Shown: positions 1 to 47,719 of the stretch, piece by piece
How the letters are laid out: each line of letters starts with the position of its first letter
Position numbering within the stretch: the stretch's first letter is position 1
From: Azolla caroliniana
Lineage: Eukaryota > Plantae > Polypodiophyta
Direction of reading: 5' to 3'
Length of the DNA: 64,000 bases
NCBI GenBank assembly: GCA_043228905.1
Contig: JBHGNT010000005.1
Location: 20,336,001-20,400,000, forward strand
Position numbers and translations under genes: made by a program
The notes under the pieces: model-generated
Seen by the model: the letters and a program-made list of their open reading frames with translations, nothing else
Database searches by the model: none
Told to the model about the DNA's origin: nothing

Positions 1-1742
1 TGCCTGATGGTCCTTCTCGACTCCAAGTCTTGCAACAATGTCATGACACACCAATGGTTGGACATTTCGGCATCCACAAGACTTTGGCGTTAATTTCTCG
101 AAGGTATTGGTGGCCACGACTTTGCCATTTTGTTACGGATTATGTTCGTAGTTGTGATACATGTTGTTGATCCAAAAAACCTTGACATCATCCATATGGC
201 TTATTATAGCCAATGCTTATTCCTGAGAGTCCATGGAAATCTATTTCATTGGACTTCATTACAGATCTACCACCTTCCAAGGGTTTTGATTATATTCTCA
301 CGGTAGTAGATTGTTTTACCAAGATGGCACATTTTCTTCCTTGCACAAACTTGGCCATTATAAGCCAAGAGACAGCCGAGTTACTCATGCAAGAGGTGTT
401 TCGGCATCATGGTCTTCCCGATGATATTATCAGTGATCGGGCTCCCTAGTTCATCTCAAAATTTTGGCGTCACATGTTCAAACTCTTACATACTTCTTGC
501 AAACTCTCTTCCGGCTACTATCCAGAAACTAACGGGCAGAGTGAGCGCACCAACCAAACAGTAGAACAATATCTTCGTTGTTTTGTCAACTATTAACAAG
601 ATGATTGGATTGATCTATTACATTTGGCGGAATTTGCTTACAACAACTCAGAACATTCTTCTACTGGATATTCCCCATTTTTTGCAAACATTGGGTACCA
701 TCCTCGTTGGACTATGCTTGAACATCCCGAACTCCCGACAAACCTAGCTGCTGAAGATCGGCTCGTGCCCGACTCCAAGAAGTTCAAGATATCCTTTTGC
801 ACCATTTATGTGATGCTCAAAACACTCAAAAGAAGGTTGTTGACCGTCATCGACGTGATTCATCGACTACATTTCAAGTGGGAGATCGAGTATGGCTTTT
901 ACAAGGTCGCATTAAAATAACCCGACCTTGCTACAAATTGGATTATCAACGTTTTGGCCCATATGTGATATTTGGTAAGATCAATGATGTGGCATTTCAC
1001 CTTGATCTTCCCCCTCATATGCATCTTCACCCGGTATTCCATGTTTCACTTTTGGAGCCGTACACAACCAGCTCTATTCCAGGCCGTCTTACATCTCCCC
1101 CACCTCCAATCAAAGTTTCGGATGGCTCCGAATATGAAGTTGCTGCAATTCTCGACTCCAAGATCGTTCGCAACAAACTGTATTATTTGGTTGACTAGTG
1201 AGGTTATACACCTAATGATCGAACATGGGAACCTCTCGAGAATCTTGCTAATGCATCCGAAATGGTTGTTACGTTTCACAACAAATATCCGCATAAGTCA
1301 AGTACGAAATCTTGTCTTCCGACTCGTGGAACTCGTCATCGAAAAGGGGGGATAATGTCATGAAGACATACATTTTGGCCTTACAAGGATTCGAGCCCAC
1401 AACGTCTTGATCTATATGTTAAACCTTTAACCATTATAATAACATATATGATATATAGTTATAATAAATATATTATTTGTTATTACAAGATATTTAGAGT
1501 ATTCTAGAATTCTAGGATATTCCATGATTATATTAAATATCATAAATATTCTAGAACATTCTAGAATACTCCATAAGGACCTATAAATAGGTGTTTATTC
1601 ATTCATCACAACCCATTCAGTTCAACACCAGTGTTTAGCCCTTAGCCTACTCTTTGTAATATTGTTTCCTAATAATATAATCTCATTTCCATTTCTTTTC
1701 CTCTCTCTCTCTCTCTCTCTCTCCTACTCACGAGTCTTGACA
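1..1742 (+). mobile_element. 3' part of a degenerate Ty3/Gypsy chromovirus (Tcn1-like): integrase, chromodomain, PPT and 3' LTR (1356-1742)
   Basis: Integrase motifs [27 protein letters not shown], the GPY module (RFGPY...HPVFHVSLLEP) and chromodomain YEVAAILDS...TWEP, with stops and frameshifts. PPT gaaaagggggga at 1341-1352. LTR TGTCATGA...TCTTGACA at 1356-1742 with TATA box ctataaata. Confidence 0.92.
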
Positions 1743-2450
1743 TGAGCAGGTATTCCATCTTTATCTTCCAGTTTGGATAGTTCTTAGAGTTTAGAACTAT
1801 CATGCTTGGGAAGCCGTTCACACCTCCTTCCATCTTCAACCTTGCTCTGATACCAAGTTTGTTGTGAATTGAATCATCAATCCACAGAAAAAAAAAGATG
1901 TTCAGATACACATATCTTGCGGAAATAAAAAAAATAGCACTGCAGAAAAAATACACACTACACAACGTTTTTACGTGGAAACTCTAAACGGGGAAAAACC
2001 ACGGGAATAGAGATTCCACTATACACAAGAGAATACAATATGAGATTAGAATACAACACTCTCCAAACAGAGTGTATTAGCCACACAGGGCTCTTGACGT
2101 CAAATCTCACTCGGTTATGGCGTCGCTCTCTCTATCTCTCACTCACACACTCTCTCCTCTCTGTCGCTTACACCAACATAGGATCACACACAATTCTATT
2201 CTGCTATACTCTATGTCTACGTTTTCCCTACGTGTATTTATACTTATACACTGTATGAACCATTTACAAATGTAGCCACTACTACTATCATTCCTATTAC
2301 AACGATGATAGATATTCAGCCGACATGTCGACTAGTCGACTTCAGCATCGACTGTCTAGTCGGCCCTACTAGTTCCTCATGTCTTTGACTGTTGGTACTC
2401 GGCCCAACTAGCAAGCCGGCTACTTCCATAGGAGGGACATATTCCTAACA
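1743..2450 (-). mobile_element. 5' end of Ty1/Copia element B: LTR (1860-2450), tRNA-iMet PBS and gag start, interrupted by the chromovirus
   Basis: gctctgatacca at 1844-1855 is the reverse complement of the TGGTATCAGAGC PBS. Gag N-terminus MEGGVNGFPSMIVLNSKNYPNWKIKMEYLL is cut at 1742. The LTR has TG..CA ends and the ccgtggttttt...ttccacgtaaa motif. Confidence 0.85.
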
Positions 2451-3388
2451 GTTCTACCCTCAACAGTTGGATCCCTCTTTTGGACAAGTACTTCTCGAAG
2501 GCTCTAGAGGTTTATTCACCCCTGTTGGCCGACTGGAAGATTTTTACTTTGTGGCCATATCGGTTTTTGACTTCAGTTATCCACCAAGCGAATGTCTTGA
2601 GCGCTTCATCTTTGGACTTAAGTGAATAAGCCACGTCATCCACGAATGTGATGAAGTAACGTTGTCGTGAAGAAAACCAGGCATAGGCGGAATCGGAGAA
2701 AAAGGCGCATGAACTAGCTTTTACACGGATGGGCGCATGAATTGATATTTTGAGATTTTGTACATTATTCATAAATGGATCGGCTGATGTAAATACTAAG
2801 TAGTACACATTTAATAAGGGATTGTGCGTATCTCTGTCGAAAGGGACAGGGAATAAAGCGGTTTGACTAGGGAAAGAGGCACCCCCTTTTTTGGGGGGAA
2901 CTATTTAAGGAGAGGGGAGAAGGAGGAAAAGGGATCGCGCGTTGGCGAGGAGGAGGGGCTGCTATAGAACCGAGTGTCGAGCTCTCTCTCCTCCGATCGT
3001 CGTTCTCTACGGGTGTCGGGAGTTCGTTGCCTCTGCTTCGTGGACAGCCCGTGTGCTTCCAGAAGAGTCTCTCTCTTCCCTTTTTCCCTTTTGTTTCTTC
3101 GAGTCATGTGGCTGTCATCGGTGTGCGTGAGTAGGACCTCGTGTCGGGTCCATTACCGGGTTGCCGGTTGTAACTGTTCGAGTTGTAAGCTTTTGACTAT
3201 AGTAATTGGATTCCTGTTTTCTTGCTCTTAATCTCTTCCTGTGTACTTGCAACTCTCTCTCTCACTCTCACTCTCACTCTCTTCTTGGTCCAAGACCCCC
3301 GTGTTCCCGCCTCTTCCTACACGCGAACGCGAAACTTCGCGACATCTTTGGTGAACCCGACGTGAACAGGCGGCAAAGGAGTCGAAAG

Positions 3389-5446
3389 ATGAGGGGATCA
3401 GAGCTAGCGGAGGCAATGGTTGTAGCTGTCGACCGGCTGGTAATCGCTCGTGAGGGGATGGGTACCCTCAACAGAGCCATTGAATCGATCGTCGGCACTA
3501 TAGGCCGGTTCGGAGGGAAGGACGCCACAAGTTATTTGGAGGCTTACCGAGCCGAAATGATCAGGAGGGATATCCCGGTGGACAGGCGGTTGTCCGGATT
3601 CCCTCGGGTGGTGGCACCGAGCATCCACGCGGAGGTGCTCGAGGTGTTGGCCGAATGTCGGACTTGGGAGGAGTTCGAGCTGCAGCTCCTCGAGAAGTAC
3701 GGGTTTGACGACTCGCTTCGGTTGTTGAGGCGGGACTTCATGGCGTGGGTGGAAAGCCCTGGAAAAGGGAGGAACACGTTGGCGCTCCTCCAGGAGTTCG
3801 AAAAATGGTTCGCGCGGCTATCGACACTGGACCGGACCGTGCTTGAAACGAGTCGAGTACTACTGTTTGTCAAGTCGATGAACCCGCTCGATAGGGAAAG
3901 GGTGGGTCCCCTATTGGAAACGGACGAAGGGCTCACGGCAGACTGGGCCGCGGTAAAACGGGTCTGCAGCCGTTTCGACAAACGGCCCGATTGGAGCGAC
4001 GGAAGCTTGTCGGGGTCAGGGCCGGTCCCGGCGAGGAGGCTCGAGGGGTTGGCATCGAATGACGTGGTCAGAGGCCCATCTGGAGGAGCAGCTCTGGAGG
4101 AGCTGACACAGATGGTGCGCGACCTGCAGATCGCACAGGCCCGGAGAGACAGCGGCGAACAACCTCGCAACCGGAGGCCGCCGGCTGGGCAGCGGTGCAT
4201 GTGGTGTGACGCGATCGGTCACATTCGGAAGGATTGCGCGGATTTCGCCGACGCACTCAGGAGCAACGTGGTGTACCTCTGGAACGGGCGGGTGCACGCG
4301 AGCGAGACCCGGAGAGCCCTAGAACTAAATACGGGGCGCGGCGAAATGAAGAGGTTGATGGAAGAGGCCGCGGCACGGCAGGTTGAAGCCGTTAACTACT
4401 CAGTGTCGACGGGAATTCGGGTCGGGGGCGACTAGTCCCAAAAGGTGAAGGACTCCGGATTTTGGCCGCTAGTGCTAGAAGGCTTCTCCGGAGTTCGGCT
4501 GAAGAAGGAAGAGGCGGACCGCGCGGAACAACGGGTCCAGGAGGTCACCGGATGGGACGATCCGGTCGAAGAGAAAACGGGCTTCGTAGAAGTAGCTTGC
4601 CAGAACTACGAGGTTCTGGTGGAAGACAAACGGGTAGGAAAGGCCGGGGGGGTGGGTCCCCCGCAGAGGTATGAAACCCGGTCCGGACCGAAACCGACTA
4701 GTGCCGGCAACCCAGGTGCGCCGAATGGGAAGAAGCAGGCGGCGTTTCGATTGAGCACCGAAATTGAAAGGACCACAGACCTATGAAAGGTCCTGGAGGA
4801 ACGTATCCTCGACAACAAAGTGGAGCTATCACTAAGGGAAGTACTCGGGATCACCATCGTAGACTTGGTGAAGAGGAAAAGGTTGTCGACAGAGCCGGAA
4901 CCGGAGAAGCCGGTGGAAGTGCGAACGACGCACATAGTGGACGCGGCCCTAGAAGACGAGTTGGCAGAAAGCCACTACGCGAAGCCGCACTGGGCCAGGG
5001 CAACTACGGAAACCCCTGTGCGGATCGGCGATGTTCCGGAACCGGTGGTGGCCCTGGTAGACCATGGATCCGAAATCAACCTAATGTCCATGGATTTCTA
5101 CAAGAGGGGTAAATGGCCGATCAACACCAAGCACGGGTGGAACATACGCGCGGCGACGCGTGCTACGGAGGAGCTGCATGGGGCATGCCCGAATATACTC
5201 GTAAAGGTCGGTGACGTCGAGATAGATCAACATTTCTTCGTGCAGGAAACATCCTCTCACCCAGTGATTCTTGGCGAACCATACATTACAGCAGCATGCA
5301 TGGAGACGAAAGTGCTGGACAACGGTTCGGCGTACAAGCGCGTAAAGAGCCAGGACGGTCGGCATTCCGTCCAATTCATGACCGTACGACCGAACCATGA
5401 GAGGAATCGTGAGACCCTCGGCGGCGGCAGCCAAGGGGATTTTTAG
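3389..5446 (+). pseudogene. gag-protease ORF of the Trp-primed Gypsy (one stop at 4433, one frameshift near 4785)
   Basis: ATG at 3389 (MRGSELAE). Zinc knuckle CMWCDAIGHIRKDC. Aspartic protease ALVDHGSEINLM...VILGEPY. Ends GGATTTTTAG at 5446. Confidence 0.88.
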
Positions 5447-8400
5447 AGAGGGCTATCAAGGCGTGGGGCCGTAGTAGTCCGGACGTACTGGAACAACCCC
5501 ACACATGTACAGTAGATAGGAAATTTTGGTTCTCTAAAAACGGAGGTTGTACTATAACCGGCGTCAACGGCCAGGAGAGGAAGCGAGCGGAGGAGCGGCT
5601 CAGGGGATGCGGAGTCCTCTTCCTCGACGAAGACATCACGGCGCCGTGGAGGTGGTCTCTTTTGACGACACCTTCGGCGAACTGCGAAAGGTGATCGGTG
5701 AAGACCTTAGAGAAGACCGGACTGTTCCGGTAGGTTCAATGGGAATGTACGAAGTCATCACGGACTTCGGGGAAAGGATCGGGTCGGATCGGACGGCTCG
5801 CGTGGATACAAAGTACAAGACTGTGGACCGGAAGGTGAGGCCAGTAGCGGCACCCTTACCGGAGGGCAGTGAGGAGCGGATAAAAGGGGTCGCATCAGAC
5901 CCCAGTTTACGAAATCCGGCTGGCATAGGGCATTGGTTCACCGACATAACGCTACGGGAGCTCAAGGTTGGTGGGGGTGGCTTTCTACTGCTGGCGGAGG
6001 AGGATAGGTTTCAGAGAATGCTCAGAAGGCATGGGAAAGCCTTTGCGTTCTCACCGGAGGAGATCGGGTGTGTGGACCCGACGATCGTCGAACCGATGGT
6101 GATCTTCACGGTACCGCATGTACCGTGGAATCTCAAACCGATTCCAGTGCCGAGAGCTCACATCCCGATGTTGATGGAGCTTCTGAAGCAAAAGGTGGAG
6201 ATGGGCATCCTCGAACCGTTGAGTGCCCCGTATTCGAATCGGTGGTTTACGGTGCCGAAGAAGAACGGCACGCTGCGCTTCATTCAGGACCTGCAACCAG
6301 TCAACAAGGTGACCATCCGTAACGCAGGAATCGGACCGACCATAGACGAGTTCGCGGAGGCCTTCGCCGGAAGGTTGATTTACTCTGTCAGTGATCTGTA
6401 CTCGGGGTACGATCAGTTCCAACTAGCCGTGGAGAGCAGAGACATTACGACGATGCGGACTCCTATCGGTCTAGTGCGGATGTGTACCCTACCACAAGGA
6501 GGGACAAACTCAGTGGCTCACATGGTGAAAGCGATGAACAAAGTGCTTAGGGATTGTATCCCGGACATCACCATGCCATTCTTAGACGACATCCCGATCA
6601 GGGGATGCCCGGTGGAGGAAAAGGACGAGACAATCGGACCAGACGGATGTCGGAATTTCGTGGTGACTCACATCGAGGACTGCGAGAAGGTGCTGCAGAG
6701 ACTAGAAGGCGCGAGGCTCACCTTCTCTGGGGAAAAATCAACCTTCGGACAATCGGAGATCATGGTCGTCGGGCACCTATGTGGACCCTACGGTCGGAAA
6801 CCGTCTCCGGCCAAGGTTGAAGCCATCTCCGCGATGAAGCATGACTGCGATTCGGTCACAGAGGTCCATAGATTCTTGGGAGCATGCACGTTCTACCATA
6901 TCTGGATCCCACACTACGCACATGTTGCGGAACCCCTCTATAGACTATTGAAAAAGGGGTGTAGCTTTGAGTGGAGGACGGAGCACACGGAGTCGGTACG
7001 GAGACTAAAGGAGGCGCTTACGGTGGCGTCGGCTCTCCATAAAGCGGTTTACGGCAAGGATGTCCCCATTTGCATGACGGTGGACACGAGCCCGACCGGG
7101 ATCGGGTGGGTAATCAGTCAGGAGGATAAGGACGGCGTACGATTCCCGATCCGGTTCGGGGCGAAGGTATTGAGCAAACGGCAGCGAGGATACGCCCAAG
7201 TTAAGCGCGAGCTTTGGGGTATCGTTTCGGCAGTCAAGGCCGACAAGGACTATCTGTTGGGGACGGAGGTGATCATCGAGACGGACTGCCTACCGATACT
7301 CGACATGGTTTCCAGATGCGCGACGCCGGACCTAGCAATGCTCCGGTGGATAGCGTACATTAAGTCCCTGAACCCGGAGATACAGCACATCTCCGGAAAG
7401 GATAACGCCATGGCCGACATGCTTTCGAGAGCAAGGTTCAACGACGAAGACGGCATGGTTTCGGATGACAAAGAAGTCGGCGAGGACTTCTTTGGGTCGG
7501 CTAAAGTAGCGACGAGGGAAAGGGACACTCCAGCGCTTAACGAATTTGACGAAAGCAGGTACAATAGGGAGTGGCTCCAAATCGGGAGGTTCCTACGGAC
7601 AATGAGGCCGAACGCAGCATGGACGAGAGAAGAGGCGAGCCGGGTACGGAAGAAGGCGTACCGATTCTTCCTGCGGGACAAGTGCATATGGAGGCACCCA
7701 AAGAAGAGAAACGGCATCCCACTCCGAGTAGTGACAAAGAAAGAGGAACAGGAGGGACTACTGGCGGCATTTCACGAGAGTCCCAGGGCCGGGCACCGTG
7801 GAACGTGGGCCACGTTCGAGAAGCTGAAGGAGAAGTACTAGTGGTCGGGGTTGTACCAGGACGTGCATCGGTTTGTAAAGACTTGCGAAAGTTGTCAGAT
7901 GCACTACATCGTCTGACATCGGGACGAGCTACACCCGACCTACCCACCTATGGTCCCTTTCAAGTGGATGGTGGACTTGGTGATGATGCCGATGGGGGTA
8001 GGACATATGCGATACCTGGTGCTTGCACGGGAAGACTTAACGAACCAAGTGGAAGGCCGTGCACTGCAGAACAAGACAACCGCGGCGGTATGCCGGTTCC
8101 TGATCGAAGAGGTAGTGTGTCGGTACGGGTGCGTCGGGAGGATCATGGCGGACCGGGGAGAGCTAGATGCGCGGGAAGCTGAGGAGTTGTTCGACCGGCT
8201 AGGCATCAAACTTTCCCTCACTAGGGCGTACAATCTGGAGGCGAACGGAAAGGTAGAACGTGGGCACGAGCCGATCGTAAAGGCGTTGGTGCGTGCATGC
8301 GGAGGGCAGGTCGGGAATTGGCCGCGGCTCCTTCCTTACGCACTATGGGCGGACCGAACTACGCACAGTTCGGTGACAGGGTTTATGCCGGCTGAGCTGA

Positions 8401-8909
8401 TGTACGGATAGAAACCAATCATGCCGGTGGAACGGACGGTTTCTTCATGGGCGACAGTAGATTGGAAGGACGAAATGAGCCGGGAGGAGTTGCTAGCGGC
8501 GCGGATTCGGCAACTCGAGCGGAGGCTGGAGGACGTGAAACAGGCGAAGGAAAAGCTACGAGCAGCAAGGGAGCAAAACAAGACCCGGTTCAACCGGACG
8601 CACCGGTTGCGACCAACGAAGATTGAGGAAGGCGACTGGGTCTTGGTATACGACAGCAGCCTCGACAATTAGCACAAGGCGGTGCGAAAGTTCGCTAGGA
8701 GATGGTTCAGGCCCTACACGGTGACGAGCGCGAACGACAACGGCACGTACCACCTTGCAGAACTCGACGGGACACGGTTAGCGGTGCCGGTGGCCAGGAA
8801 GCGGATCAAAGCGTTCAAGAAGCGGTTCGAAGACGAGCCGGAGCCTACGAGCGGGAGCGACAACGACGATCAATTTGGGCCCGACGGAGAATTTGGGAAC
8901 GACAAGTGA
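5440..8909 (+). pseudogene. RT-RNaseH-integrase (pol) of the Trp-primed Gypsy, with in-frame stops
   Basis: RT motifs DLYSGYDQ, LPQGGTNS and FLDDI. RNase H VDTS, RELWGI, ETDC and ADMLSR. Integrase HHCC (HESPRAGH...CESC), MADRGE, ANGKVERGH and a C-terminal WFRPY module. Stops at 7839, 7914, 8409 and 8670 all fit C-to-T or G-to-A changes. Confidence 0.93.
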
Positions 8910-11900
8910 AGCCGGTTTTCTTCGGTATCTACCCGTCTCTGGCGCATGCCGGTGGATGCGCGGTTTGGTGGGGGTGGATGTCGTGAAGAAAACCGGGCAT
9001 AGGCGGAATCGAAGAAAAAGGCGCATGAACCAGCTTTTACACGGATGGGCGCATGAATTGATATTTTGAGATTTTGTACATTATTCATAAATGGATCGGC
9101 TGATGTAAATACTAAGTAGTACACATTTATTAAGGGATTGTGCGTATCTCTGTCGAAAGGGACAGGGAATAAAGCGGTTTGACTAGGGAAAGAGGCACCC
9201 CCTTTTTTTGGGGGAACTACTTAAGGAGAGGGGAGAAGGAGGAAAAGGGATCGCGTGTTGGCGAGGAGGAGGGGCTGCTGTAGAACCGAGTGCCGAGCTC
9301 TCTCTCCTCCGATCGTCGTTCTCTATGGTTGTCTGGAGTTCGCTGCCTCTGCTTCGTGGATAGCTCGTGTGCTTCCAGCAGAGTCTCTCTCTTCCCTTTT
9401 TCCCTTTTGTTTCTTCAAGTCGTGTGGTTGTCGTCGGTGTGCGTGAGTAGGACCCCGTGTCGGGTCCATTGCCGGGTCGCCGGTTGTAACTGTTCGAGTT
9501 GTAAGCTATTGACTATAGTAATCGGATTCATGTTTTCTTGCTCTTAATCTCTTCCTGTGTACTTGCAACTCTCTCTCTCTCTCTCTCACTCTCACTCTCT
9601 TCTTGGTCCAAGACCCCCGTGGTCCCGCCTCTTCCTACACGCGGACGCGAAACTTCGCAACAACGTGCACCTCCTAGAGATCTCTCAGGCGGTGGCTCGT
9701 ACAAGCCGTTGTGTATTAGCCCTAAGGGTTTTGGTACCGTCTCGTAGTGTATAGAGTGTGGACTTCATGTATGCTTCACATACATGCAGTGCTCATAGAA
9801 GTCGAATTCCAAATGTTGAAGCTTTAGAATGTAGCCAAGTGTCGTAGCCTTTCAAGCCCTATTTGTGACATGTAGCTGAGTCGGCCATGCCACAATGAAG
9901 ATGTCGGCATTTCGGCTACCTTTAGTGATCCCTCCCAACTGTACATTATAAGAGGGTACAAGTTATTGTACTTCACGCCATGGCCAATGTGCAGATTTCC
10001 TTTCGAAATTCACCATCACGACTCACTCAGTGTAGTCTTATACTCCTCTTTGGCCAGCATGTCCATGGAGATTAAACAGTTCCTCATTAGATCGGGTACG
10101 TGTCATACTTGGTGTAGGGTGATGATATTTCATCCAACGATTTGGCACTCCTATGCATTGCCATGTCGGACCATGTTAGCATTGGTCGAATAGTCCGAAA
10201 ACCATTCTTTATAGGGGATTACATGAAAGGTGGCGCCCGAATCCAACATCCATCTTAGTGCATCTTGTGCAGTATACAGGATCTCATTGGTCAATGTGCC
10301 TTATAAAGAGAGGACCCCTCCCAACGATGATCCGGCAACATGAATTTGGTTGCAGGCTGAAGGCTGGTTCAAGTCGAAAGAGCCTCCATTCCGATCAAAT
10401 TTTCAGCCTTTTCCCATCTTGTTCAATGACCAACAATCGGAAACGTGGTGGTCAGCCTTTCTACAGTGTGTGCAATAGGTGTTTGAAGGCACACCTCTCG
10501 ACTTCGACCGTTGGTTGTCACTTCTCCTTGTTGACCTGCTTTGATCGCTGCCAATCCTCTGAGCCATTCCCCCAAAGACGTGAGCTTTGGCACTGTCGTG
10601 GATGGTGAGTCTCATCGACTTTCTTCGAAGCTCTTTGAATAGGACCACCCCGATCGCTTCATCCAGCGTCAGCTTCGTCAAGTTGCTGGTCACAGTGGTG
10701 CATAACAGTTCCCAACTCGTCAGGAGGCTTGAAAGGAGTGCAAGCGCCTTGATTTCTTCTTCGAAGTTTAGGCCTTGCGAGGGAGGTCGAACAACACATG
10801 GCTAAAGATGTTGATATGGGAGGTTGTCGGCTCTGACTCCCTCATCTTCATATTGAATAGCTACTGAAGCAAGATGAGTTTGGAAGAGCTAGACTTCTTT
10901 TTGTATATCGATTGAAGCTTCTCCATAGGGTGAATGCAGAAGACTTTTTAGCCATGTTGAAGTAAATGTTTTCTGTTAGATGCATTCGGATTGTTGATCT
11001 CGTGACTCATCAAGCAACCGCCATTCCTCTGTTGTCATCGTTGACGGTCAGTTGTTATGTTGATAAGCTTTGATCTGGCATCTGATGATCAGCACATCCT
11101 GCATCATCTCCTTCCATAAGGCAAAGTTTTTGTTGTTGAACTTTCTGATCTCACAACCTATGTCGGATGTTGAGGCCATTGTTCTTTTGGAGATCTTTGT
11201 TTGGCTTGATCCATTCCTTCAGTATTCTACCTCTTCTTATATCGACACTACTTGGTTCCAAGATCTCTCTGATACCACTTGATAGCGCTTATAGTGCCTC
11301 ATCGACTGTGGTGTGTAGTCGTTTAGTCGACTATGGTCGACTGTTGCGGAAGCAAGTGTGGCTCTTGTTGTTGTGAAGCAAGCATGAAGTGTTGTGATCA
11401 TTGTTCTATTTCAAGATATACACTGAGAGAAAGACGGTTACACAGATGTTAGCAAAAGAGAATATTTGTATTAACATTCGACATCTCCTTGTACAAAGAG
11501 GAGTACCTCTTATTTATACTTGAGTGGGCTTAGCCCTAACTCAGAAGGAGATTTCACCTTATAAGTACAACGCTCGAAAGTAGGACTTTTAGCCCACCAT
11601 GGACAAGGTAACATTGTTGGGGCAGTAAACTAGTAAAACTATGAGATACACAAGGAGAAGAGGAGGTAAGAATATCTTGTCACTAACGAGTGAAACATCG
11701 CTTACGCATCCTTTACAATCATTCTAGTCACATTGTAGGTAAGATATTCATTTAGGTAAAGTGCCAAGAAAGGAGAAGTCAACAACAAAAGGTTGAAGTA
11801 CATGTGGCAAAACTCAAAACATCAACTAGGGAGGGGCCAATAATAGATGAAGTAGTTGACAAGTGTCATCATTAACACATCAGGCCCAAACCATGAAGGA

Positions 11901-16732: not shown

Positions 16733-17919
16733 CTAGAAGTTCTCTTTATGAAATTCAAATCTTGTGCTGGAAGAATGGTTGTAAACCTTGACTAGATTCT
16801 CCAGTTCCTTTGCAAGCATCAATGGACCACAATAAAAAACTCCTGTTTTTTTTTTTTTAAAGAGGCAAAATGTGAGAAAAACAAACCAAAAACACTTGAA
16901 TCACTAGTGAGAAAGCTCATAATATGAGATGGATGATTTTTTAACATTGCATACCAATCGTCGATCCTTTATGGATATTCGCGACCCGAGTGAATACTTT
17001 CTTCCAATTTGGTCTCGCAAAGTGGGTCCTCACCTGCCATTCCAAGTCATGACTTAACCTGAAGATCCTCCCCAAAATGTATGTGATAATGTATGTATAG
17101 TTGACAACAAACACCTACCCTGGTTCCTGAGACAATGTCCACCCCATTCTTAGCATGGTGTAAACTTTGAACCATCATGATAAGTGCAGATCTGGCATCA
17201 CCTTCTTCATACACACTTGTTAGGTAGTTATGCATCTCAATAACCGCCTGCATGATAGTACATTCATGAATCAAGACCCATTATCCTTCTAGATATGCAT
17301 ATTACATATGCATTTACATTATGGAGTTCACTAACTAACCTGGTAATCTTTCTCAGCGACTTCGTTCATCACCCCCCGAAACCATTCAAAGGAGCCTTGC
17401 TCCCTTGTGACCCAATAGAAGTATGCATTCGTAGGACATCGGTGTTTCTTTTTTTTCTTCGTGTTTGCATTACTCTCTGCAGGTTTCGTAGATATGGGAG
17501 ATTCCAAAGAACTGATGCTCGAGTTCGAACTTGAGATTGACGTACAGCTAGTACTTGAATCCTACATGAAGTTATTTGAATCAGATATTTGAATGCAATT
17601 TGTAGATACACCATATCAGAGTTACTAGATACAAGTTCACTAACATGTATGCAAGATTGCTGATCTGTAAGCTTGATATCATTCAACATATCTTTCAAAA
17701 TACTGATGAAAGGGGTTGCTCCAATGCCAAGTCCAACAAGCAAGAGGACATCATACTTCTTATAATCCTGTGCTGGGGCCCCATAAGGCCCATCTATACG
17801 AAGTCTTGGAAATCTGCAAAGGAATATAAAAATATTGAGCTAGGTAATGTGAAGTTCTTATGTTGTATGTATGTATGTATGTATGTATGTATGTCTGTAT
17901 GTATGTATGTATGTATGTA

Positions 17920-17950
<31 letters not shown>

Positions 17951-20900
17951 TGAGGGACGTTGAATCCTACCTAACTTCAGCTCCATATTTGCATTCTGCT
18001 CTTAGCAAGCCACTTTTGCCAGCAACAGGGGGTTCCATTATCTGCCAAAACAAGACTGATTTAGATCTATCTTTATGTTCAACAAAATAACACAACTAAC
18101 GAGCTGAGCTTGGCTGGGTCTCTTAAAGCTCACCTCTGAGAAGATTCTCTTCATTTCCAGAGTCCAATCACCACAAGTCCTGATGTGAACACTTAGGACA
18201 TCATCTCCTGGGGCAGAGGTAAGGGAGAATGGATGCCTGCATGAATAAAAACGGGAAATTGGTGAGCAAATCAACCTCTCTGGAAGTGTGTTGAGTTCTT
18301 GGAAAGAGAATAGGATTATATAAGAATGTCCTAACCACTCGAAGGGTGAGACATCTGGGCATTGCAAGAATATATACATTCCACTCTTATATTTGAATCC
18401 AGGAGGCTTTGCCATATGAAGGGCTAACACATTTCCAGGATAAACAGCAGCCTACACTCATACACATTTGAATGAATCAAAATCTACAACTGAATAGATG
18501 ATAAAAACATCAGACATTTGAATTTATAATGAACCTTGAATTTCACTGGAGCATATGTAAGACTGACCTTAACCACAGTAACAGTATAATAACCGGCTCG
18601 CAATGCTCTCAATATACGCTCTCCTGCGTATAGAAGAACTGGACCAGCCAAATACATCCATGTCTGTTGAATTGATGAATTAGTTAAAGAATTTCCACTT
18701 ACCATTCAATATAGAGGTTGTAAATACTCTGTATTTTCAGATTTTCAACATGGACTGTAACTAAGAAGTGAATGAATTCCTTTAATATAGGCTATAATTT
18801 CAGCATAGAGTCAGATCAATTTGTTCGGTGGATTAAACATAGACACTGACTACCCTGCTCAAATATTTTCACTCATTCAGTATGAAGTTCCAATTCTATG
18901 TTTTCCATACTCACATACTATGCAAACCCTTCCTTGATATACCCCCCCTTATTATGGTTAAATATACATTGGGTTGCTGATCTTCTTTGGACTGCTTCCT
19001 TAATCAATTGTTTCGCCATTCAGCATGAAGGATTAAATTAGAAATTGAAATACAATCTAGATACAACCAATGATTGTCGAATGCATATGGGTTGATGATC
19101 TTCTTTAGGCTAAATGGAGATATTTTCGGTTTCCCAGTCCAGAGTGATTCCTTTCTCAAGTTCATTAATTTGATGGTATTTAAATCTAATTGAAGCTAAT
19201 TAATCAACTTGTCAATCCATATAATTTTCCCTTCAGCTTGATACGGATTATTTCTTGTATCACAAGAGATTACAAACGTGAACAATGAGCACATAGGTTT
19301 AACAGAAGTTTGTGACCATACCGATTTCTGCACCCAATCATGATTGAGGTACAGACACATCGAGTGAACGATGAGCAACACGTAAACAATCGAGAAGAGA
19401 TGGTGTGAATACCAAAAGGCATTGAATCCTGTCATTCTATGCAACGGCCATGGCAGCTTCACCAAGTTCCTCCTAAACCACCTTGAAGCTAGAACAAATG
19501 CAATGACCATGAGCACTACCATGATCACTCCTGTCACACCCTCTACACCTTTCAGTAAATCTAGATAAGTTGGTTTGACATGGCCAAAATCTGAGCCTAA
19601 GTACTTCTGAAACGTTTCCTCATCGCTTCGTATCAACCGAGGAAAGTCACAAGTCATGTGAATTCCAGCATGCGCGATTACACCGATGACTATAGCCATG
19701 GCAATGGTCTGCGAACATTTAAGAAAGATTATGGACATGGCATTTTAACTGATTCAATCAAGCCCTGCAGTCAATGGCAATCTGCCTCCAGAAACAGTAA
19801 ACTACCTTGTGGAAATTGATGTTATCATCGAAGGGAACAATCGTGCCGAGAAAAGTCGAGCGAAGCCACGTGATTGTATTTCTACATACTGGCAGAAGGA
19901 TGAGAGCCATGTTGAGTTTTAGGGTTTCGGCAGCACCTTTGGCAGTACATACACAATAGCCCATTATCTGAAAAGGTGCCCTGTTTTTGTATTGAAAGAA
20001 CTTCCATGTGAATAGAGCAGCCATAGCCAGAATCCAAAGGCCCATCACCCACCAGCGCTGCCAATTCTCGTCCAATCGGTGTATTGCGGCCATGGACAAC
20101 CTATAGAAGACATTCCTTCTTCTCTTAGCAGGCAATGTCTGGCTTAGGGTTTGGCTATAATTACTCCCAGTGTCTTGTCCAAATTGTTCGCAATCTTTCC
20201 CTTGAAGCAGAGCCTCAAATTGCCAAAGCTGCAAATTCATAGCTAATGTATGATGAGACAATTGTATTATATCAAAACCTATCCAGATGAAGGAGGTGTC
20301 AATGTATGTTACCTCAATGTAGCCAAGATTGAGGGGATCAAGCTCTTCCATTATTAGGGCTGCATACTCCTCTGCTTGGTCTCTAAGTTTTAAGAGCTGA
20401 TTTGCAGAAGCACTCAATGCAATCACCTTTGGGTAAACCAGAAAAAAGAAAGGGTTAGAAACCTTTTTCAGATCTGAAACACACCATGACCTAAGTTATA
20501 ATACTGATCACACACCTCCTTCACCTCTTCTTCTGTAATGCGTCCATCCGCATTCTTGTCACACCTGTGCATTGATTCCAGATCACACAAAAGAATACAA
20601 AAAATCAAATAGAAAATTGAATGATATATATGGAGCGAGCTCCCTTACATATCGAAGAACATTTGTATACGAGAATCGAAGCTTTGATTCGAGATCCTCG
20701 TCCAGAATTCTTGAAGTTCTTCCAAAGTTATCGATTGCAGCATAAGGCCTCGTCTTCGAGCGAATGCATCGAAGAGTTCGGTCGCAAATTCATCAGAATC
20801 TTTCATTCCTGAGAGAGTATTTGCAAACATGTTATTTATATCAAGTAAACCCTATTTCTTAGATCCCCGCAGAGTTATAGTGAAGAAAAGGCACAGACTC

Positions 20901-22532
20901 AACAATAATGAAAGACATTTACGGTGATGAAACAATGAGGCTTCTGGATTTCAAACAAAATAACTATTTGATTCAACCATGATCTTCATCCTCCCCGAGT
21001 GAGCACTTCAGTCGTGTTGTTTGTATCAAGTAAATTTCTAAAACCTAATCAAATCGCACCGTAGTTGTGACGGACAAAATGAAGCAGCTTCAATTACCAC
21101 ATACATACATGTTATGCAATGGATTAATTAAGTCAGTCGGAAGAGCAGATTACATTAAATCTCTACATGCTACAGGCTCTGCTTCATGTTTTGTCTCTAC
21201 ATAAATCCAACCCTAGAGGCACTGATTCAATAACCACACACATATCGCGTAATGGAGCATGTATGGTATCTTACAGATGCAGTGGCCGAAAATCCATCCT
21301 AACGGTAGTGATTCATGTTGGTTTACATGAATTAAACCCTGATCAAAGCAAAGCGATGGGATGAAACCAGTATCGCATGCCATATAATGGTATTTCGGCA
21401 GGTTACCCATGTAATCAGCCGAAATCTACTGCAGAAAGTAAACCCGAAACCCTAATCAAAGCATAATTTTGAGCTTCTTAACTATGGATAGAGCCAAAGA
21501 TAACCATACCGAGAGAAAACCAAGACCTAAAATTGCTAGCGACTCACATTGTGTGTGTAAAAGAAAGATCTAGAACCATAATCAGATCGTAAATGTTGCG
21601 ATGATTAAATGAGACACTGATTCAATCACCAGTAACTACATATACTGATCTGGATTAAGGTTATGCTTTTTACCGATGCAATATCCAAAGTCAGCCCGTG
21701 CGAGGAGGCCATCGGTTGAGGCAAGCTGATAGAACCGATCCTCCACAGCTTTCCATTGAGTATCAGAGTCGATCTCTGTAGTTTTGCTGAAGAATCGGAG
21801 GCTCTCCAGCGCAAATTCAGTGCTTGATTTGCATCGTCCTAGGGAGAAATCAGTCCCTAACATCTGCGAATATGGCTCATTCCCTGAGCAGTTCCTAATC
21901 TTAATGCTACTAGAGCCACAGCTATGGAAAGCTTGAACATCTGAAGAGATGATATTATTGGAGCCATCGCTGGCACTAGGGTTTCGGAAACAGTAGGTAT
22001 CTTCATTGTTAGAGGAAGAGGTAGCATTGGAGCAAAGCTGTTTGATGAACTCATTCATTCTCTGGGAGGGAGAGCGGTTAGACTCTGAGAAGAGACCTTT
22101 TGATTTCTGCTTCGTGTGTTTGCTGGAGGCGTGGATTAGGTTCAGAAGATGTGATGATGATGATGATGAAGAAGAAGAAGAAGAGGCTCTCTTCGTCTCT
22201 TCTCTGCACAGGTCGGCAAGGGTAATCGTATTCGTATTCTGATGTCTGTTGGGATCCACCATAGCCAGAGAAGACGAAGAAGGCGAAGAATGGCCTTGCT
22301 GCATTCCTCGGGTGAGAAGCAGCGAATCGTCGTCTCTTACATCTACGGTCAGCTCCACCATAGCCAGCCCCTCTTCTTCTTCTGATTCTGCTTCTGCTTC
22401 TTTTTCCTCCTTCTCTTCTGTTCCTACCTTCTGAGGAAGCTCGGATCCTGCATGGGCCCTGTCAATGTCGATGACTCTCCTCCTCCTCCTCCCCAGATCG
22501 AATGAAAAGGACCTACAATACGTCTGCAGCAT
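16733..22532 (-). CDS. RBOH: Respiratory burst oxidase homolog (NADPH oxidase), 15 coding exons, about 1028 aa
   Basis: Exons with GT-AG junctions: 22532-21674, 20808-20649, 20564-20516, 20426-20313, 20228-19806, 19708-19322, 18663-18568, 18451-18336, 18236-18134, 18041-17971, 17813-17645, 17561-17340, 17247-17119, 17033-16955, 16842-16733. Total 3087 nt, in frame. Motifs: EF-hand [76 protein letters not shown] and FHKENF*. The start codon and the exon-11 donor are the least certain points. Confidence 0.96.
17865..17952. repeat. (TATG)n microsatellite in RBOH intron 10
   Basis: About 20 TATG units read directly. Confidence 0.95.
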
Positions 22533-22723
22533 TACTAATTAACCTGACGGGATCAGAGAGCTGCTGCTTCTTCGTCGTCTTTCCTTCCTACCTGTTACAA
22601 TGCGGACCATGATGGAGATACACAGAGAGGTGCAGAAGAAGCATCTGCAGGAGGGGGGGTATACAGGCACATATATATATATATATATGCAATTTGTGTG
22701 GCTGAAGAACAATCAAGCTCGTT

Positions 22724-26600: not shown

Positions 26601-27611
26601 AAACCATCCAAGCAACAATCCAGGTTCTTCTATTGTAACAATGCACAATCGAAAAGGATAACACTACCCAACAAAAGTCATCATGATTCCATGTAGAGGT
26701 TATGCAAGACAAGCAAAAGCCATCCACGCAAAACTACAAAGATTGGACTTTCTCATGTGGGGTTGTCAATTGTCTTGCATTGAAGTTTATTATGTCAAAT
26801 ATAAAGGTTTTAATATTTGTGCATTCACATGTAGTGTGTTGATTATCAACATAAACAGAAATCCTCATTGTACTGATTGGATGGTCAACCTCACTTAATT
26901 CTCCTAATTCATTTATTTATGTGCGAGTATTTTGAACAATCATAATTTGATGTCTCTATATCATACGATTGAACATGATTGATATGTGTATACAATCAAT
27001 TGTATCAAATTGAGTGATTCACTAGTTATGATCATGTCCATCAACAAGAACTAGTATCCATCAACTCAAGGGCAATCTTTGACTTAGGTTTCCAAAACCT
27101 ATAGTGTGGAGAAATCTTTTGATTGTGTGGTCTTTAAACCAATAATTAACAAGATGATTTTGGACATTTTGAACTATTTGAATAACTTGGAATGATGTAG
27201 TATTTGGCTGATCCACCAATATTTGACAATAATTTCATTGAGCACTCAGCAAGACAATCTCTTTACAATTCTCTTGGTTTGTTAATCTATGAAAATTTTA
27301 GCTTTATTTTGAGTGCTCTTGAGTATTAATATTTTGAATATTATTTGTTGTCAGTTTTTTTCCTCCATTTGAGTTTCCCCCCTCGTAATGTGCATTGTAA
27401 AAAGAGAAAAGATTATAGACTCACAAACTTATATTGTAAAAACTTTCATTTAAATAGTCAATGTGCTTTAATACAGCCATTTATATTGCCACTCCTTTTG
27501 ATGAAGCAGACATTCAATTCCATCACTCATGATTGTTTCAAGCATTTTTCCCGATGAACTACCGCAAGGATTGCCTCCTTTCCACATTATGGAATATCTC
27601 ATTCATATCAT

Positions 27612-28387
27612 GCATGTCGCCACTTCAACGAGCTTTCAACTTTATTGACTCAATAGAAAGGAGAAAATCGAGATCTCATACGAACTAGAGGATTGCTTGT
27701 GAATGGATTGGCCGTATATGAATGAGGAAGCCACCTTAGGCAACTCTTGATTTATTAACAAATGAGGAAATAAAAACCTAGCCACAAACACATTCATTGT
27801 TAGAATCTCAATATATTAATTATTACAAATGTTTTGCAAACCAAATACGTGTTGTGGTTAGTGCTACTCAATAACACTAACCACCAAAATTTCAAAATTT
27901 TCTTCGCCCTCTTTTTCCTTTCATTGGCATTTTTCCATCTTTTGGCGCCAAAATTCACAAGAACCAACGATCATTAGTTTGCCTATTCGCATCCTTGAAC
28001 ATTTGGCTTGTCAATATTGTTCACGTCTTTGGAGAATTTGCCTTGTTTGAGGGATCACATCCTTGGAACATTCATCTCATGTGTGTTTGCATTCTTGGAA
28101 CATTCGCCTCATTCAAGCCTTCGCATCCTCGAAAGTGTTTGCCTCCTCTAAGCATTCACCTCCTTGGAACATTTGCCTTAATTATACTTTTCAACCTTTT
28201 AATTAAAAAAATAAAGAAAAGAAAAGGATGAACCCAACCCACATTGGTCCAAATTCTTCAAGCTTCGCGTCACACCCCTTACACCAAGACGACTTGGGCT
28301 AACACCAATGTTAAAGCCAATACCTCCAACCCTATGAAGTACTACAGAGGATGGTTGACATTAAGAGTTACTCCCAAAGATAAATTT
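27612..28387 (+). repeat. Left arm of an inverted repeat of about 775 bp (partner 33569-34344)
   Basis: The same near-identical spurious ORF appears on opposite strands (27995+ and 33725-). The arm can be followed from tgtcgccacttcaa to ctcccaaagataaattt. Confidence 0.92.
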
Positions 28388-29670
28388 TGTCACGGATCAT
28401 AAGCTCAAGAGACAAGCAAGAAGATAACCAAATGGACAAGAAAGAAGATAGTATTAAAGGAAAGACTCCATAACTGGTGTTGTTCACCTTGAATTCCTTC
28501 AAGGTGAACTCTTCTATTTATACTACATGGCATGCATACTTGTTGCACGCATGTGAATCTACAATAGAGCATGTAGGTATGCATTCATGTGCCAAGTGTA
28601 AATACTACAAGGGAGCAACTATGCCGCCTTCCCAAATCGGCCGCTGGTTTGTGGGGATATCGGTGATGAAAAACTTGGACGACCTCTGGGGCATTTTGTA
28701 AATTTGCCGATGGTTCCCACGTGGCCTCAGACATGGGGTAACCCCTCCATAGGACGAGGTATTGCAAGTGTCGACGGTGCCAACACGAGTCAAGGATTTG
28801 TCCGACCTCGTATTCCTCCCCTATCGTCAATTGCACAGGTGGTGGTGGTGGGGCCTGACGTCCTGGGAGTTGTGAAGCATAAGGGGGTTCGAGGAGGGAG
28901 ACATGAAAAACATCGTGAATCCGGAAGTGGGATGGAAGGGCGAGCCGGAAGGCGACGGGATTGCTGCACTCGATGATACGGAATGGTCCCAACTTCTTGT
29001 AATCAAGTTTCGCACATGGACGAGTAGTAGAGATGTGTCGACGTAACAACCAGACCATGTCTCCAACGACAAAGTGTGGAGTGGAAGATCGATGACGATC
29101 AGCTTGCTTCTTGTATCGTTCACTAGCAAGACTAAACTCCAAGGATAAATCATGATGTAGTTCTTCCAAAATGCGGGCGCGATCCTCCGCCGAAGGGTTC
29201 ACGGAAGTGGTAGGAAGGGAAATGTTGAAGCGAGGATGTAAACCATAGTTGGCAAAGAAGGGAGTGACACTAGTCGATGCATGGAGAGAATTATTGTAGG
29301 CGAATTCCGCGAGCGAAAGTAAGTTGACCCAATCATCTTGTTGGTAATTAACCGAGCACCGAAGATACTGCTCAAGGATTTGGTTGACACGCTCCGTTTG
29401 CCCGTCAGTTTGGGGGTGATAAGCAGAGGACAACTTGACAGAGATGCCTAAAGTTTGTAGCAGGCGCTGTCAGAAGTGAGAGACAAACTGGGGTCCGCGA
29501 TCCAAGATGACATCATCGGGGAGTCCATGCAAGCGTACCACATTGTTGAGTAGTAGATGCACCATTCCTTCTCTGGAAATGGTTTTGGAGCATGGAGTGA
29601 AGTGAGCCATCTTTGTAAACCGATCGACAACGACCAACACCGAGTCATAGCTATTGACCAAGGGTAGATT
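28388..29670 (-). mobile_element. Truncated Tcn1-like chromovirus: integrase, chromodomain and partial 3' LTR
   Basis: SSAYHPQTDGQTERVNQILEQYLR, LGPF, HDVFHVSLLEP and chromodomain YEVGQILDS...QYLVLWRGY...TWEP. The LTR end (reverse complement ...CCGTGACA) is at 28388. Confidence 0.92.
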
Positions 29671-29673
29671 AGT

Positions 29674-30037
29674 TGGACCAGCTCACTACAAAATTAGTGG
29701 GGACTCATGATTAATACACCACTGTGTAAGAGAGTGGATTATATTCTCTATTTGGTCTGAGTGTAACATTAAATGTGCATGTCAGTTGATAGTAGTGGAG
29801 ATATTCCTTTTTTGTCAACTAACTTGTCATTTAATATGACCCAACTCCCTAGATACAGGCTAGTGCTAGATAATATTTATCTTGAATTCAATGGCACATA
29901 CTTCAACACTAAGTACATTGTAACTTGCCCACAAAATATTATAGTTGACTTGATTAGCCAATCCTATTACCTGTTTTACTCTTTCCTACCATTGTGTCCT
30001 ACGCATTTACAGTTTCCTAGATTAACACCATATCGCC
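29674..30037 (-). repeat. Inverted internal fragment of the Copia C LTR (matches 31034-31397 and about 35896-36259)
   Basis: The same spurious ORF MCMSVDSSGDIPF occurs at 29773+, 30987- and 35786-. Ends traced by eye. Confidence 0.9.
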
Positions 30038-30046
30038 ACACCTAAA

Positions 30047-31545
30047 CCCCCCACACCATCTTCACTCCTCCTTATCCCTCAAAAGAATTTGCTTCTTAAG
30101 TCCACATCAACCATCTCGCCGATTACCACCAAATTCCTATATAAATAATAGCAAAATGATTATAAAATGTTTCCTCATCCCCTCATATATTTGCTTCAAC
30201 CCCCACACCATCGTACTCATCCTCTTGTCATGGCAATATGCTATAAAGACAATAACTACATGACAACAACGACAAGAAACCTAAGAAACCTACAATCTTC
30301 TTCATTCCGTCCACCTAACTTCTCACCGACATGTCTCATCACAAACATTCCGCCACAATCGTCATATTCGGAGTTGGCGGCGTAATTGGTGAGTTGTCGG
30401 CTAGTGGAAGACGACTCACGTATCGTCTTACGACACTCTTCTTCGTGGTGACTGATTTTTCCACAATATCCGCATTCGACCGAGTTTTGTCGGCTCGGAC
30501 CGGAATGGAAGCTCCTCCTTCTTCCGAAGGTTCCTCGATGGCTTCCGTCTTGATGCCGAAATTGTGAGTTATTTTCGTAAGTCGGGCTCATCCACCTCGT
30601 CCTTGGCCGAATCGGCCTCTTGCTCGGTCGCGCCCTCTTTCTCCGTTCGAATGCGTGTAGTGCATGTGGCCTTTCGAGGTGTTGCTCCTTGTTCGAACAT
30701 GGTTTTCTTTGACCAACAACATGGGTTGAAGATCGACGAAGACGGCGGATTCTCCCGTGGTAATACAGTGGTCCTCATCGTGCCGAACTGTGGTGCAAGG
30801 CCGCTGAGGCATATTTGCACCATCTCATCATCGTCCACATTGACACTTATCGAGCCAAGCGAGTCGAAAAGCTCCTTGATCTTCAAGGTGTAGCTCGTGA
30901 TGGACATATTGTTGGATATATAATCAATGATCAGCCCCAAGTTGTAAATCTATCCCCATATGTGCTCTTAGAGTGCACATTTTGTGTTAGCGCCCCAAAT
31001 GAAGAGCGGCTATTGTGCAACTCGACCATATGGGGCGATATGGTGTTAATCTAGGAAACTGTAAATGCGTAGGACACAATGGTAGGAAAGAGCAAAACAG
31101 GTAATAGGATTGGCTAATCAAGTCAACTAGAATATTTTGTGGGCAAGTTACAATGTACTTAGTGTTGAAGTATGTGCCATTGAATTCAAGATAAATATTA
31201 TCTAGCACTAGCCTGTATCTAGGGAGTTGGGTCATATTAAATGACAAGTTAGTTGACAAAAAAGGAATATCTCCACTACTATCAACTGACATGCACATTT
31301 AATGTTACACTCAGACCAAATAGAGAATATAATCCACTCTCTTACACAGTGGTGTATTGATCATGGGTCCCCACTAATTTTGTAGTGAGTTGGTCCAGAT
31401 CCCATCTAAGCTCTAAGGTGTGAGCGCATGGGTGAACTACCATTGTGAGCTACTATCATATGTAATAGAAGTTTTGTTTTCATATATCCATCTCTATGGT
31501 TGTAACTCTATATACCTATCCAATTGATTCTCAATATTTCTAATA
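30047..31545 (+). repeat. First copy of a direct duplication of about 1.5 kb (second copy 34908-36407)
   Basis: Paired near-identical ORFs (30167/35028, 30331/35192, 30569/35443) and continuous alignment by eye with scattered SNPs. Confidence 0.93.
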
Positions 31546-47515: not shown

Positions 47516-47561
<46 letters not shown>

Positions 47562-47702: not shown

Positions 47703-47719
47703 ATAGCGTTCTTTTCTTC

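What the first reader, a model, noticed from the sequence alone, without database searches (positions are those of the whole stretch)
2659..9666. Atypical GC-rich Gypsy element with tRNA-Trp priming and a 4-bp TSD
Seen: PBS TGGTGAACCCGACGTGAA sits 4 nt after the LTR. The TSD is exactly ACGT, since only a 4-bp overlap restores the host integrase reading GGARYFITF. The body is visibly GC- and CpG-rich compared with its flanks and has no chromodomain. Known: the PBS is the complement of the 3' 18 nt of plant cytosolic tRNA-Trp as I recall it, and most plant LTR elements make 5-bp TSDs and commonly use tRNA-iMet, as the Copia elements in this window do. Inference: a divergent non-chromovirus lineage whose RT motifs (DLYSGYDQ, LPQGGTNS, FLDD) resemble bryophyte Phygy-like or fungal Gypsy elements. 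It could be a poorly described lineage or a horizontal acquisition.
Basis: partly seen in the sequence, partly recalled or inferred. Interest (0 to 1): 0.7.

Follow-up and report, generated by a model that had tools for sequence, protein, structure and literature searches.

The report
Fern Phygy retrotransposon with frameshift switch
This is a decayed copy of a jumping gene that is very common in this genome (likely a fern), and its odd primer and 4-base insertion scar match the already described Phygy group; the new detail is a conserved signal just after the protease gene that is predicted to make ribosomes slip back one base to reach the reverse transcriptase.

Summary
The element spans 2663-9662, has an ACGT target-site duplication, an 18-nt primer site matching this genome's tRNA-Trp genes, a GC/CpG-rich body and no chromodomain. 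The reading 'poorly described lineage or horizontal acquisition' mostly fails. REXdb's Phygy clade is listed with 4-bp NCGN duplications (100%) and tRNA-Trp priming (81%). Here 14 of 18 two-LTR copies have perfect 4-bp duplications, all NCGN, and none has 5 bp. About 5,700 primer sites exist genome-wide. The nearest named relatives are liverwort and fern elements (52-67%); named fungal Ylt1-like elements are only 35-38% identical, and a sister subfamily in the same genome is AT-rich, so recent transfer is unlikely. No moss Phygy sequence was available, so membership rests on features. Two extras: Gag-protease and RT-RNaseH-integrase lie in separate frames joined by a G_GAU_UUU slippery site, a stop and a predicted pseudoknot (heptamer in 36 of 37 junctions), where REXdb lists Phygy's layout as not determined; and the lineage groups with fungal Ylt1-like elements, not with Athila-type rows. 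Frameshifting is inferred, not measured.

The parts
2659..2662 (+). Left target-site duplication ACGT (NCGN type)
2663..3344 (+). 5' LTR, 682 bp, TG...CA
3349..3366 (+). Primer-binding site, 18-nt complement of the 3' end of host tRNA-Trp(CCA)
3389..5446 (+). Gag-protease frame (CCHC knuckle, weak DUF4100 match, DHGS protease motif); two premature stops in this copy
5437..5446 (+). Slippery heptamer G_GAU_UUU in the Gag-protease frame, followed directly by that frame's stop codon
5450..5502 (+). Predicted H-type pseudoknot: stem 1 5450-5456 with 5474-5480, stem 2 5463-5468 with 5497-5502, 6 nt after the heptamer
5437..8909 (+). RT-RNaseH-integrase frame, entered in the -1 frame; this copy has one frameshift lesion near 5620-5640 and four premature stops; no chromodomain, no extra RNase H
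8967..8978 (+). Polypurine tract directly before the 3' LTR
   Evidence: the same tract precedes 3' LTRs of other copies
8979..9662 (+). 3' LTR, 684 bp
9663..9666 (+). Right target-site duplication ACGT
2451..2658 (-). Decayed Copia-type integrase sequence interrupted by the element (continues from 9667 upward); Copia label from recalled motifs

Best explanation
The element is a decayed, non-coding copy of an abundant Ty3/Gypsy family that is likely the fern branch of the Phygy lineage, and it is predicted to have made its RT, RNase H and integrase by a -1 ribosomal frameshift placed after the protease. Mechanism: (1) shown: two LTRs, an 18-nt tRNA-Trp PBS and a PPT; inferred: ordinary reverse transcription with tRNA-Trp for the minus strand and the PPT for the plus strand. 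(2) shown: 4-bp duplications centred on CG; inferred: the integrase makes a 4-nt staggered cut and prefers CG-centred targets. (3) shown: Gag-protease and RT-RH-INT are separate frames overlapping by a few codons, with a conserved G_GAU_UUU, a stop and two stems; inferred: most ribosomes stop and give Gag-protease, a minority slip -1 and give the full polyprotein. (4) shown: this copy has six premature stops and one frameshift lesion, and sits in a decayed Copia-type integrase. (5) inferred: long vertical residence in seed-free land plants, with fungal Ylt1-like elements as the nearest named non-plant kin.
For: REXdb table: Phygy 4 bp (100%) NCGN, tRNA-Trp 81%, no extra domain; the text names Phygy as the only lineage with a target motif. 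Here 14 of 18 two-LTR copies have perfect 4-bp TSDs, all NCGN, 0 of 18 perfect 5 or 6 bp; four solo LTRs agree; 2,915 LTR starts are preceded by CGN. 5,800 exact PBS 14-mers, 63 of them tRNA-type. Named RT-RH relatives: Riccia 50-67%, Adiantum 64%. Plant clade 100/100 on a long stem. Frameshift cassette, junctions chosen by the protease end alone: heptamer 36 of 37, in frame 35, stop directly after 33 (27 TAG, 4 TAA, 2 TGA), both stems 28, against 5 of 753 other heptamers, 3 of which are missed cassettes. 92% of cells paired, 38-47% when slid; one pair in each stem changes on both sides. G_GAU_UUU is a known -1 site in a plant virus. No joints in 200 laid RNA reads and 23 contigs.
Against: No Physcomitrium Phygy sequence could be placed in the tree, so the clade's defining test is open. 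The element (7.0 kb; copies 4.1-8.1 kb) is shorter than the 7.66-9.97 kb listed for moss Phygy. The DUF4100 match is below its cut-off. The copies are related, so cassette counts are not independent events, and the stem windows were drawn after seeing the sequences. Covariation is thin: pairs with double change 288 of 500 shuffles, covariation score 21 of 500. The nested-only fold of the window cassette is no better than shuffles (z -0.09). RNA reads are few, unstranded, mostly 90-95% alike and may be DNA. One young-looking copy (L062) has its slip site out of frame with its protease. Stop-free pol frames have an ATG at codon 48-90, so separate initiation is not excluded.
Confidence: 0.8

Rival explanations
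1. A separate, unnamed lineage that shares Trp priming and NCGN targeting with Phygy but is not in its clade.
For: No moss Phygy sequence was tested; REXdb called Phygy specific to P. patens; length is below the listed range; REXdb draws Phygy among non-chromoviruses, while here the family is far from Athila-type rows.
Against: Three rare traits coincide (4 bp, NCGN, tRNA-Trp); TatI, the other 4-bp/Trp lineage, needs an extra RNase H that is absent here; Phygy has since been reported in a liverwort, where the nearest named relatives also lie.
Confidence: 0.1
2. A recent horizontal acquisition from a fungus or another GC-rich donor explains the GC/CpG-rich body.
For: Body GC 0.57 and CpG obs/exp 1.1 in a 0.39 background; RT motifs shared with fungal elements.
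Against: Named fungal relatives are 35-38% identical, plant ones 50-67%. Subfamilies in this genome range from pol GC 0.38 (GC3 0.31) to 0.59 (GC3 0.72) and form one clade with the AT-rich one outside the GC-rich ones. The proposed fungus-plant transfer of Tcn1 shows about 50-52% identity over a different region.
Confidence: 0.03
3. Pol is made by splicing or by its own start, and the conserved cassette has another role (packaging or splicing signal).
For: TTTTTAG resembles a splice acceptor (recalled consensus); Ogre and Retand also separate GAG-PROT from RT-RH-INT; ATGs occur 48-90 codons into pol; RNA data are thin.
Against: The AG is not kept but the stop is (TAG, TAA, TGA); the heptamer is in the right frame in 35 of 37; pol is open back to the heptamer and closed 2-38 codons upstream; 6-nt spacer plus two stems is the usual -1 layout (established knowledge); no joints seen.
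Confidence: 0.12

Closest known systems
Phygy clade, non-chromovirus Ty3/gypsy (REXdb; Neumann et al. 2019, PMC6317226: abstract, sections 9 and 12 part 1, passages, Additional file 5 read)
   Same: 4-bp TSD, NCGN target, tRNA-Trp PBS, no chromodomain or extra RNase H, coding region fills the interior.
   Different: Host is likely a fern, not P. patens; about 7 kb against 7.66-9.97 kb; about 5,700 PBS sites; ORF layout resolved here as GAG-PROT overlapping RT-RH-INT in -1 frame, listed as not determined there.
TatI (same paper, Additional file 5)
   Same: 4-bp TSD (100%) and tRNA-Trp (75%).
   Different: TatI carries an extra RNase H between protease and RT; none found here; no NCGN preference is listed for TatI.
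Fungal Ylt1-like lineage (Novikova et al. 2010, PMC2864245, passages; Muszewska et al. 2011, PMC3248453, passages)
   Same: Nearest named non-plant relatives (Phenoliferia, Zalerion, Tilletia, Yarrowia), one 100/100 clade with the plant family; no chromodomain.
   Different: 35-38% RT-RH identity; the long relatives checked hold protease and RT in one protein; the passages read describe Ylt1-like elements from fungi only. The Yarrowia hit's identity as Ylt1 is inferred from its 2,621-aa length (recalled).
-1 frameshift sites of umbra- and dianthoviruses, and retroviral pro-pol frameshifts (Atkins et al. 2016, PMC5009743, passages)
   Same: G_GAU_UUU heptamer with a nearby stop and a 3' structure; a shift placed between protease and RT as in HTLV-1 pro-pol.
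   Different: Here a single shift in a plant retrotransposon, with a compact local pseudoknot predicted; the review's account of a 2003 survey lists only +1 arrangements for plant elements.

Membership tests
Phygy (REXdb) | RT/RH/INT cluster with P. patens Phygy sequences | not testable with these tools
   Additional files 1 and 3 too large to read; no Physcomitrium-named hit among the rows listed
Phygy (REXdb) | 4-bp TSD | tested here: met
   14 of 18 perfect at 4 bp, 0 of 18 at 5 or 6 bp
Phygy (REXdb) | NCGN target preference | tested here: met
   14 of 14 perfect TSDs are NCGN; 2,915 CGN-preceded LTR starts
Phygy (REXdb) | tRNA-Trp PBS | tested here: met
   18-nt match to 6 of 6 genomic tRNA-Trp genes checked
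Phygy (REXdb) | No chromodomain, no extra RNase H, coding region spans nearly all of the interior | tested here: met
   coding 3389-8909 of interior 3345-8978
Phygy (REXdb) | Length 7.66-9.97 kb (descriptive, one species) | tested here: inconclusive
   7.0 kb here; copies 4.1-8.1 kb within a 8.5-kb search reach
TatI | Extra RNase H (aRH) between protease and RT | tested here: not met
   no such Pfam match in the frames scanned
Chromoviruses (incl. Tcn1) | Chromodomain after integrase; chromovirus RT clade | tested here: not met
Athila/OTA | RT-RH clade with Athila-type elements; 5-bp TSD | tested here: not met
   AU test p 9.5e-6 against one clade with two Athila-type rows (label from recalled motifs, no Tat or Selgy rows); TSD 4 bp
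Ylt1-like lineage | RT clade with Yarrowia Ylt1 and related fungal elements | tested here: met
   100/100 clade of 36 rows; nesting inside the fungal rows is not established (p 0.25)
-1 programmed ribosomal frameshift element | Slippery heptamer in the upstream frame, 5-9 nt spacer, 3' structure, open -1 frame | tested here: met
-1 programmed ribosomal frameshift element | Measured -1 product | not testable with these tools
   needs a reporter assay, ribosome profiling or peptides

The most novel reading that the evidence does not exclude
Phygy is the land-plant arm of the fungal Ylt1 lineage, spread across mosses, liverworts and ferns, and it uses a pseudoknot-driven -1 ribosomal frameshift between protease and RT, an expression route not found described for a plant retrotransposon in the searches made; its CG-centred integrase preference plus a CpG-rich body would favour nesting in its own kind.
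Probability: 0.55. Interest if true: 0.5.

Novelty: new member of a known kind. Interest (0 to 1): 0.33.

Why it matters
The traits that were flagged are ordinary for Phygy, so the finding as written is explained. What is left is modest but testable: a 70-nt cassette that would be a clean case of -1 frameshifting in a plant retrotransposon, at the protease/RT border and not the usual Gag/protease border, filling the 'not determined' cell for Phygy; a wider host range for the lineage; and a hint that 'non-chromovirus' as a plant category is not one clade, since this family sits with fungal Ylt1-like elements. A sequence-selective (NCGN) plant integrase with thousands of insertion sites is also a ready data set for target-site studies.

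Tried and rejected
5-bp TSD (AACGT): needs the LTR's terminal A; 0 of 18 copies show 5 bp. Rfam scan of the element: 0 matches at E up to 1. Nested-only folding of the cassette: no signal. One search's 28 of 37 against shuffles is not used, because its cassettes were picked with stem motifs; one search repeats the test on junctions picked by the protease end. ESM Atlas: generic RT clusters, no useful taxa. Cluster look-ups: the 10 closest proteins gave no organism; 5 of 20 distant ones were named, all fungi, so the hosts of the 40-45% relatives stay unknown. Self-nesting: both flanks are family DNA in 4 of 18 copies, one flank in 2 more; no background rate was computed. DUF4100 in papers: 0 hits. 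PMC7466625 (passages) does not use the name Phygy, so its RLG2/RLG3 results could not be tied to this family. PMC13468544, PMC13469084, PMC8282616, PMC6786969, PMC12786077, PMC5014426 (passages) added nothing specific. The 2003 recoding survey itself was not obtained. A bacterial promoter scan was uninformative.
Full report
Observation. The element runs from 2663 to 9662 with LTRs of 682 and 684 bp that differ at 30 positions (K2P 0.046) and is flanked by ACGT on both sides. [quoted passage not shown] The interior has GC 0.572 and CpG obs/exp 1.11, against GC 0.39-0.41 around it. Pfam finds protease-like, RT, RNase H, zinc-binding and integrase-core matches and no chromodomain. A tRNA-type pattern ending in the PBS complement occurs 63 times in the genome; ARAGORN calls tRNA-Trp(CCA) in 6 of the 8 loci scanned, and all 6 pair with the PBS over 18 nt once CCA is added.

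The family. The window lies in a 523-Mb genome. A host lysine-demethylase exon in the window is closest to Ceratopteris among named proteins (84-85%), then lycophyte and liverwort (72-76%), and moss (64-67%), so the host is likely a fern. The PBS 14-mer occurs 5,800 times, the reversed control once. I took the first 40 matches on contig C1. Eighteen gave a two-LTR copy, 18 had no 3' LTR within 8.5 kb, 2 lacked an intact 5' start and 2 lacked PBS context, one of these being a tRNA gene. Of the 18, 14 have a perfect 4-bp duplication, 16 at most one mismatch, and none a perfect 5- or 6-bp one; all 14 are NCGN. Four solo LTRs among 30 LTR loci agree, and 2,915 LTR starts genome-wide are preceded by CGN. 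Several copies have LTRs 99.5-100% alike and stop-free frames, so the family spread recently. The window copy has two premature stops in Gag-protease, a frameshift lesion near 5620-5640 and four stops in pol.

What is known. In Neumann et al. 2019 (PMC6317226; abstract, section 9, first part of section 12, passages and Additional file 5 read), Phygy is listed with 186 elements, 4-bp TSD in 100% with the motif NCGN, tRNA-Trp in 81%, 7.66-9.97 kb, no extra domain and ORF organisation not determined; the text calls it the one lineage with a target motif. TatI also has 4 bp and tRNA-Trp but carries an extra RNase H, not found here. PMC6911290 (passages) confirms 4 bp as Phygy's commonest TSD, and PMC12885004 (passages) reports Phygy in a liverwort. 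So the flagged traits are the known traits of a described clade. The supplements holding the REXdb sequences could not be read, so clade membership rests on features, not on a tree with moss sequences.

Relatives and transfer. RT-RNase H searches return unnamed environmental proteins up to 83%, Riccia at 50-67% and Adiantum at 64%. A search without word index adds a layer at 33-45%; 5 of 20 of these looked up carry names, all fungal: Phenoliferia (2), Zalerion, Tilletia and Yarrowia. In trees of 106 rows (quick) and 46 rows (careful, a hand-picked subset plus the Adiantum row), the window copy, the genome's other subfamilies, Riccia and Adiantum form one 100/100 clade on a long stem, inside a 100/100 clade with the fungal rows. 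One clade of the plant family with two Athila-type rows is rejected (p 9.5e-6; the Athila label rests on recalled motifs and no Tat or Selgy rows were present). Fungal monophyly to the exclusion of the plant clade is not rejected (p 0.25), so no donor or direction can be named. Ylt1-like elements are described from fungi in PMC2864245 and PMC3248453 (passages). GC-richness is a subfamily trait: pol GC is 0.59, 0.51 and 0.38 in three subfamilies of this genome, with the AT-rich one branching outside the GC-rich ones. A recent transfer is therefore unlikely; an ancient one is open.

The frameshift cassette. In stop-free copies a Gag-protease frame of about 710 codons is followed by an RT-RH-INT frame of about 1,167 codons in the -1 phase, overlapping by a few codons. 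At the border lies G_GAU_UUU, then the stop, then two stems. Among 37 distinct junctions picked only by the protease-end peptide (22 from this genome, 15 from 80 metagenome loci), 36 have a heptamer of the pattern searched, 35 in the protease frame, 33 with a stop directly behind (27 TAG, 4 TAA, 2 TGA), and 28 pass a two-stem test that 5 of 753 other heptamers pass, 3 of those being missed cassettes. RT lies in the -1 frame in 12 of 15 metagenome junctions. On 19 aligned cassettes 92% of cells pair against 38-47% for slid partners, with one pair per stem changing on both sides, but the shuffle controls are weak (288 of 500 and 21 of 500) and stem 2 is misaligned in the most divergent rows. A cassette pattern occurs 1,967 times in the genome. 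Rfam has no match and a nested-only fold is no better than shuffles. G_GAU_UUU is a working -1 site in pea enation mosaic virus, and G_GA slip triplets occur in umbra- and dianthoviruses (PMC5009743, passages). Variation of the stop among TAG, TAA and TGA argues against a splice acceptor. Two raw RNA runs gave 117 and 83 reads and two contig sets 23 contigs over the region, with cover across the cassette in three of the four and no joints; the reads are unstranded, from related copies and may be DNA. Of 100 related proteins at 50% or more, 17 hold protease and RT in one chain: 16 Riccia gene models and one basal environmental protein, so the split may be shared by most of the plant clade, which I could not check at DNA level outside these loci.

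Mechanism. Shown: LTRs, PBS, PPT, 4-bp CG-centred duplications, two overlapping frames, the conserved cassette, and the lesions of this copy. Inferred: tRNA-Trp and PPT priming, a 4-nt staggered cut with CG preference, and -1 frameshifting that sets Gag-protease in excess over the enzymes. I put the Phygy assignment near 0.85-0.9 and the frameshift near 0.85.

Novelty. The flagged traits are known. I did not find the frameshift cassette, a fern Phygy family or the Ylt1 link in print. The searches were made; of the 18 papers naming Phygy I read passages of 5 and saw only the listing of the rest. Subscription journals, newer REXdb releases and the 2003 recoding survey were not seen; the 2016 review says that survey found only +1 arrangements in plant elements, while REXdb later lists overlapping frames after GAG for Tcn1 and Selgy without a phase. 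Earlier notes of this scan include one that also files nested elements of this genome under Phygy; none came up for the frameshift. Verdict: new member of a known kind, interest 0.33.

Noticed in passing
window 1-1741 (+): 3' part of a decayed chromodomain-type Gypsy element (integrase, chromodomain-like end, PPT, LTR from about 1356); locus L019 shows the Phygy-type family inserted into a similar LTR.
   Followed up: no
window 1669-2450 (-): An LTR-like stretch (about 1858-2450) followed by a tRNA-iMet-type PBS and a Copia-like gag start, directly next to the interrupted integrase: a tandem or deleted Copia arrangement.
   Followed up: no
L065, L069, L071, L073, L080, L083: Short (4.1-5.1 kb) two-LTR copies with the same PBS and no RT match, some with near-identical LTRs and long frames (L083 has 1,033 codons): likely non-autonomous derivatives.
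   Followed up: partly
L062: AT-rich subfamily (pol GC 0.38) with the same PBS, TSD type and a variant slip site A_GGU_UUU with compensated stems; its slip site is out of frame with its own protease frame.
   Followed up: partly
G000 C8:17.80-17.82 Mb, C16:4.99-5.11 Mb, C5:10.10-10.11 Mb: Clusters and regular arrays (about 0.9-1.2 kb spacing) of tRNA-Trp-type sequences, the primer of this family.
   Followed up: no
window 17369-22538 (-): Exons of a respiratory burst oxidase (RBOH)-like gene; name from recalled motifs.
   Followed up: no
window 47537-50872 (+): Lysine-specific demethylase (FLD/LDL-type) gene, used to place the host among ferns.
   Followed up: partly
window 27611-36259: Nested repeats: 777-nt inverted arms (27611-28387, 33569-34345), a second LTR pair (about 30046 and 34907) and a chromodomain-type integrase at 28585-29469 (-).
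   Followed up: no
P0250, P0291, P0293: Distant Gypsy polyproteins carrying a PHD finger (one also DUF4100, one a DNA methylase domain) in the precomputed Pfam list.
   Followed up: no
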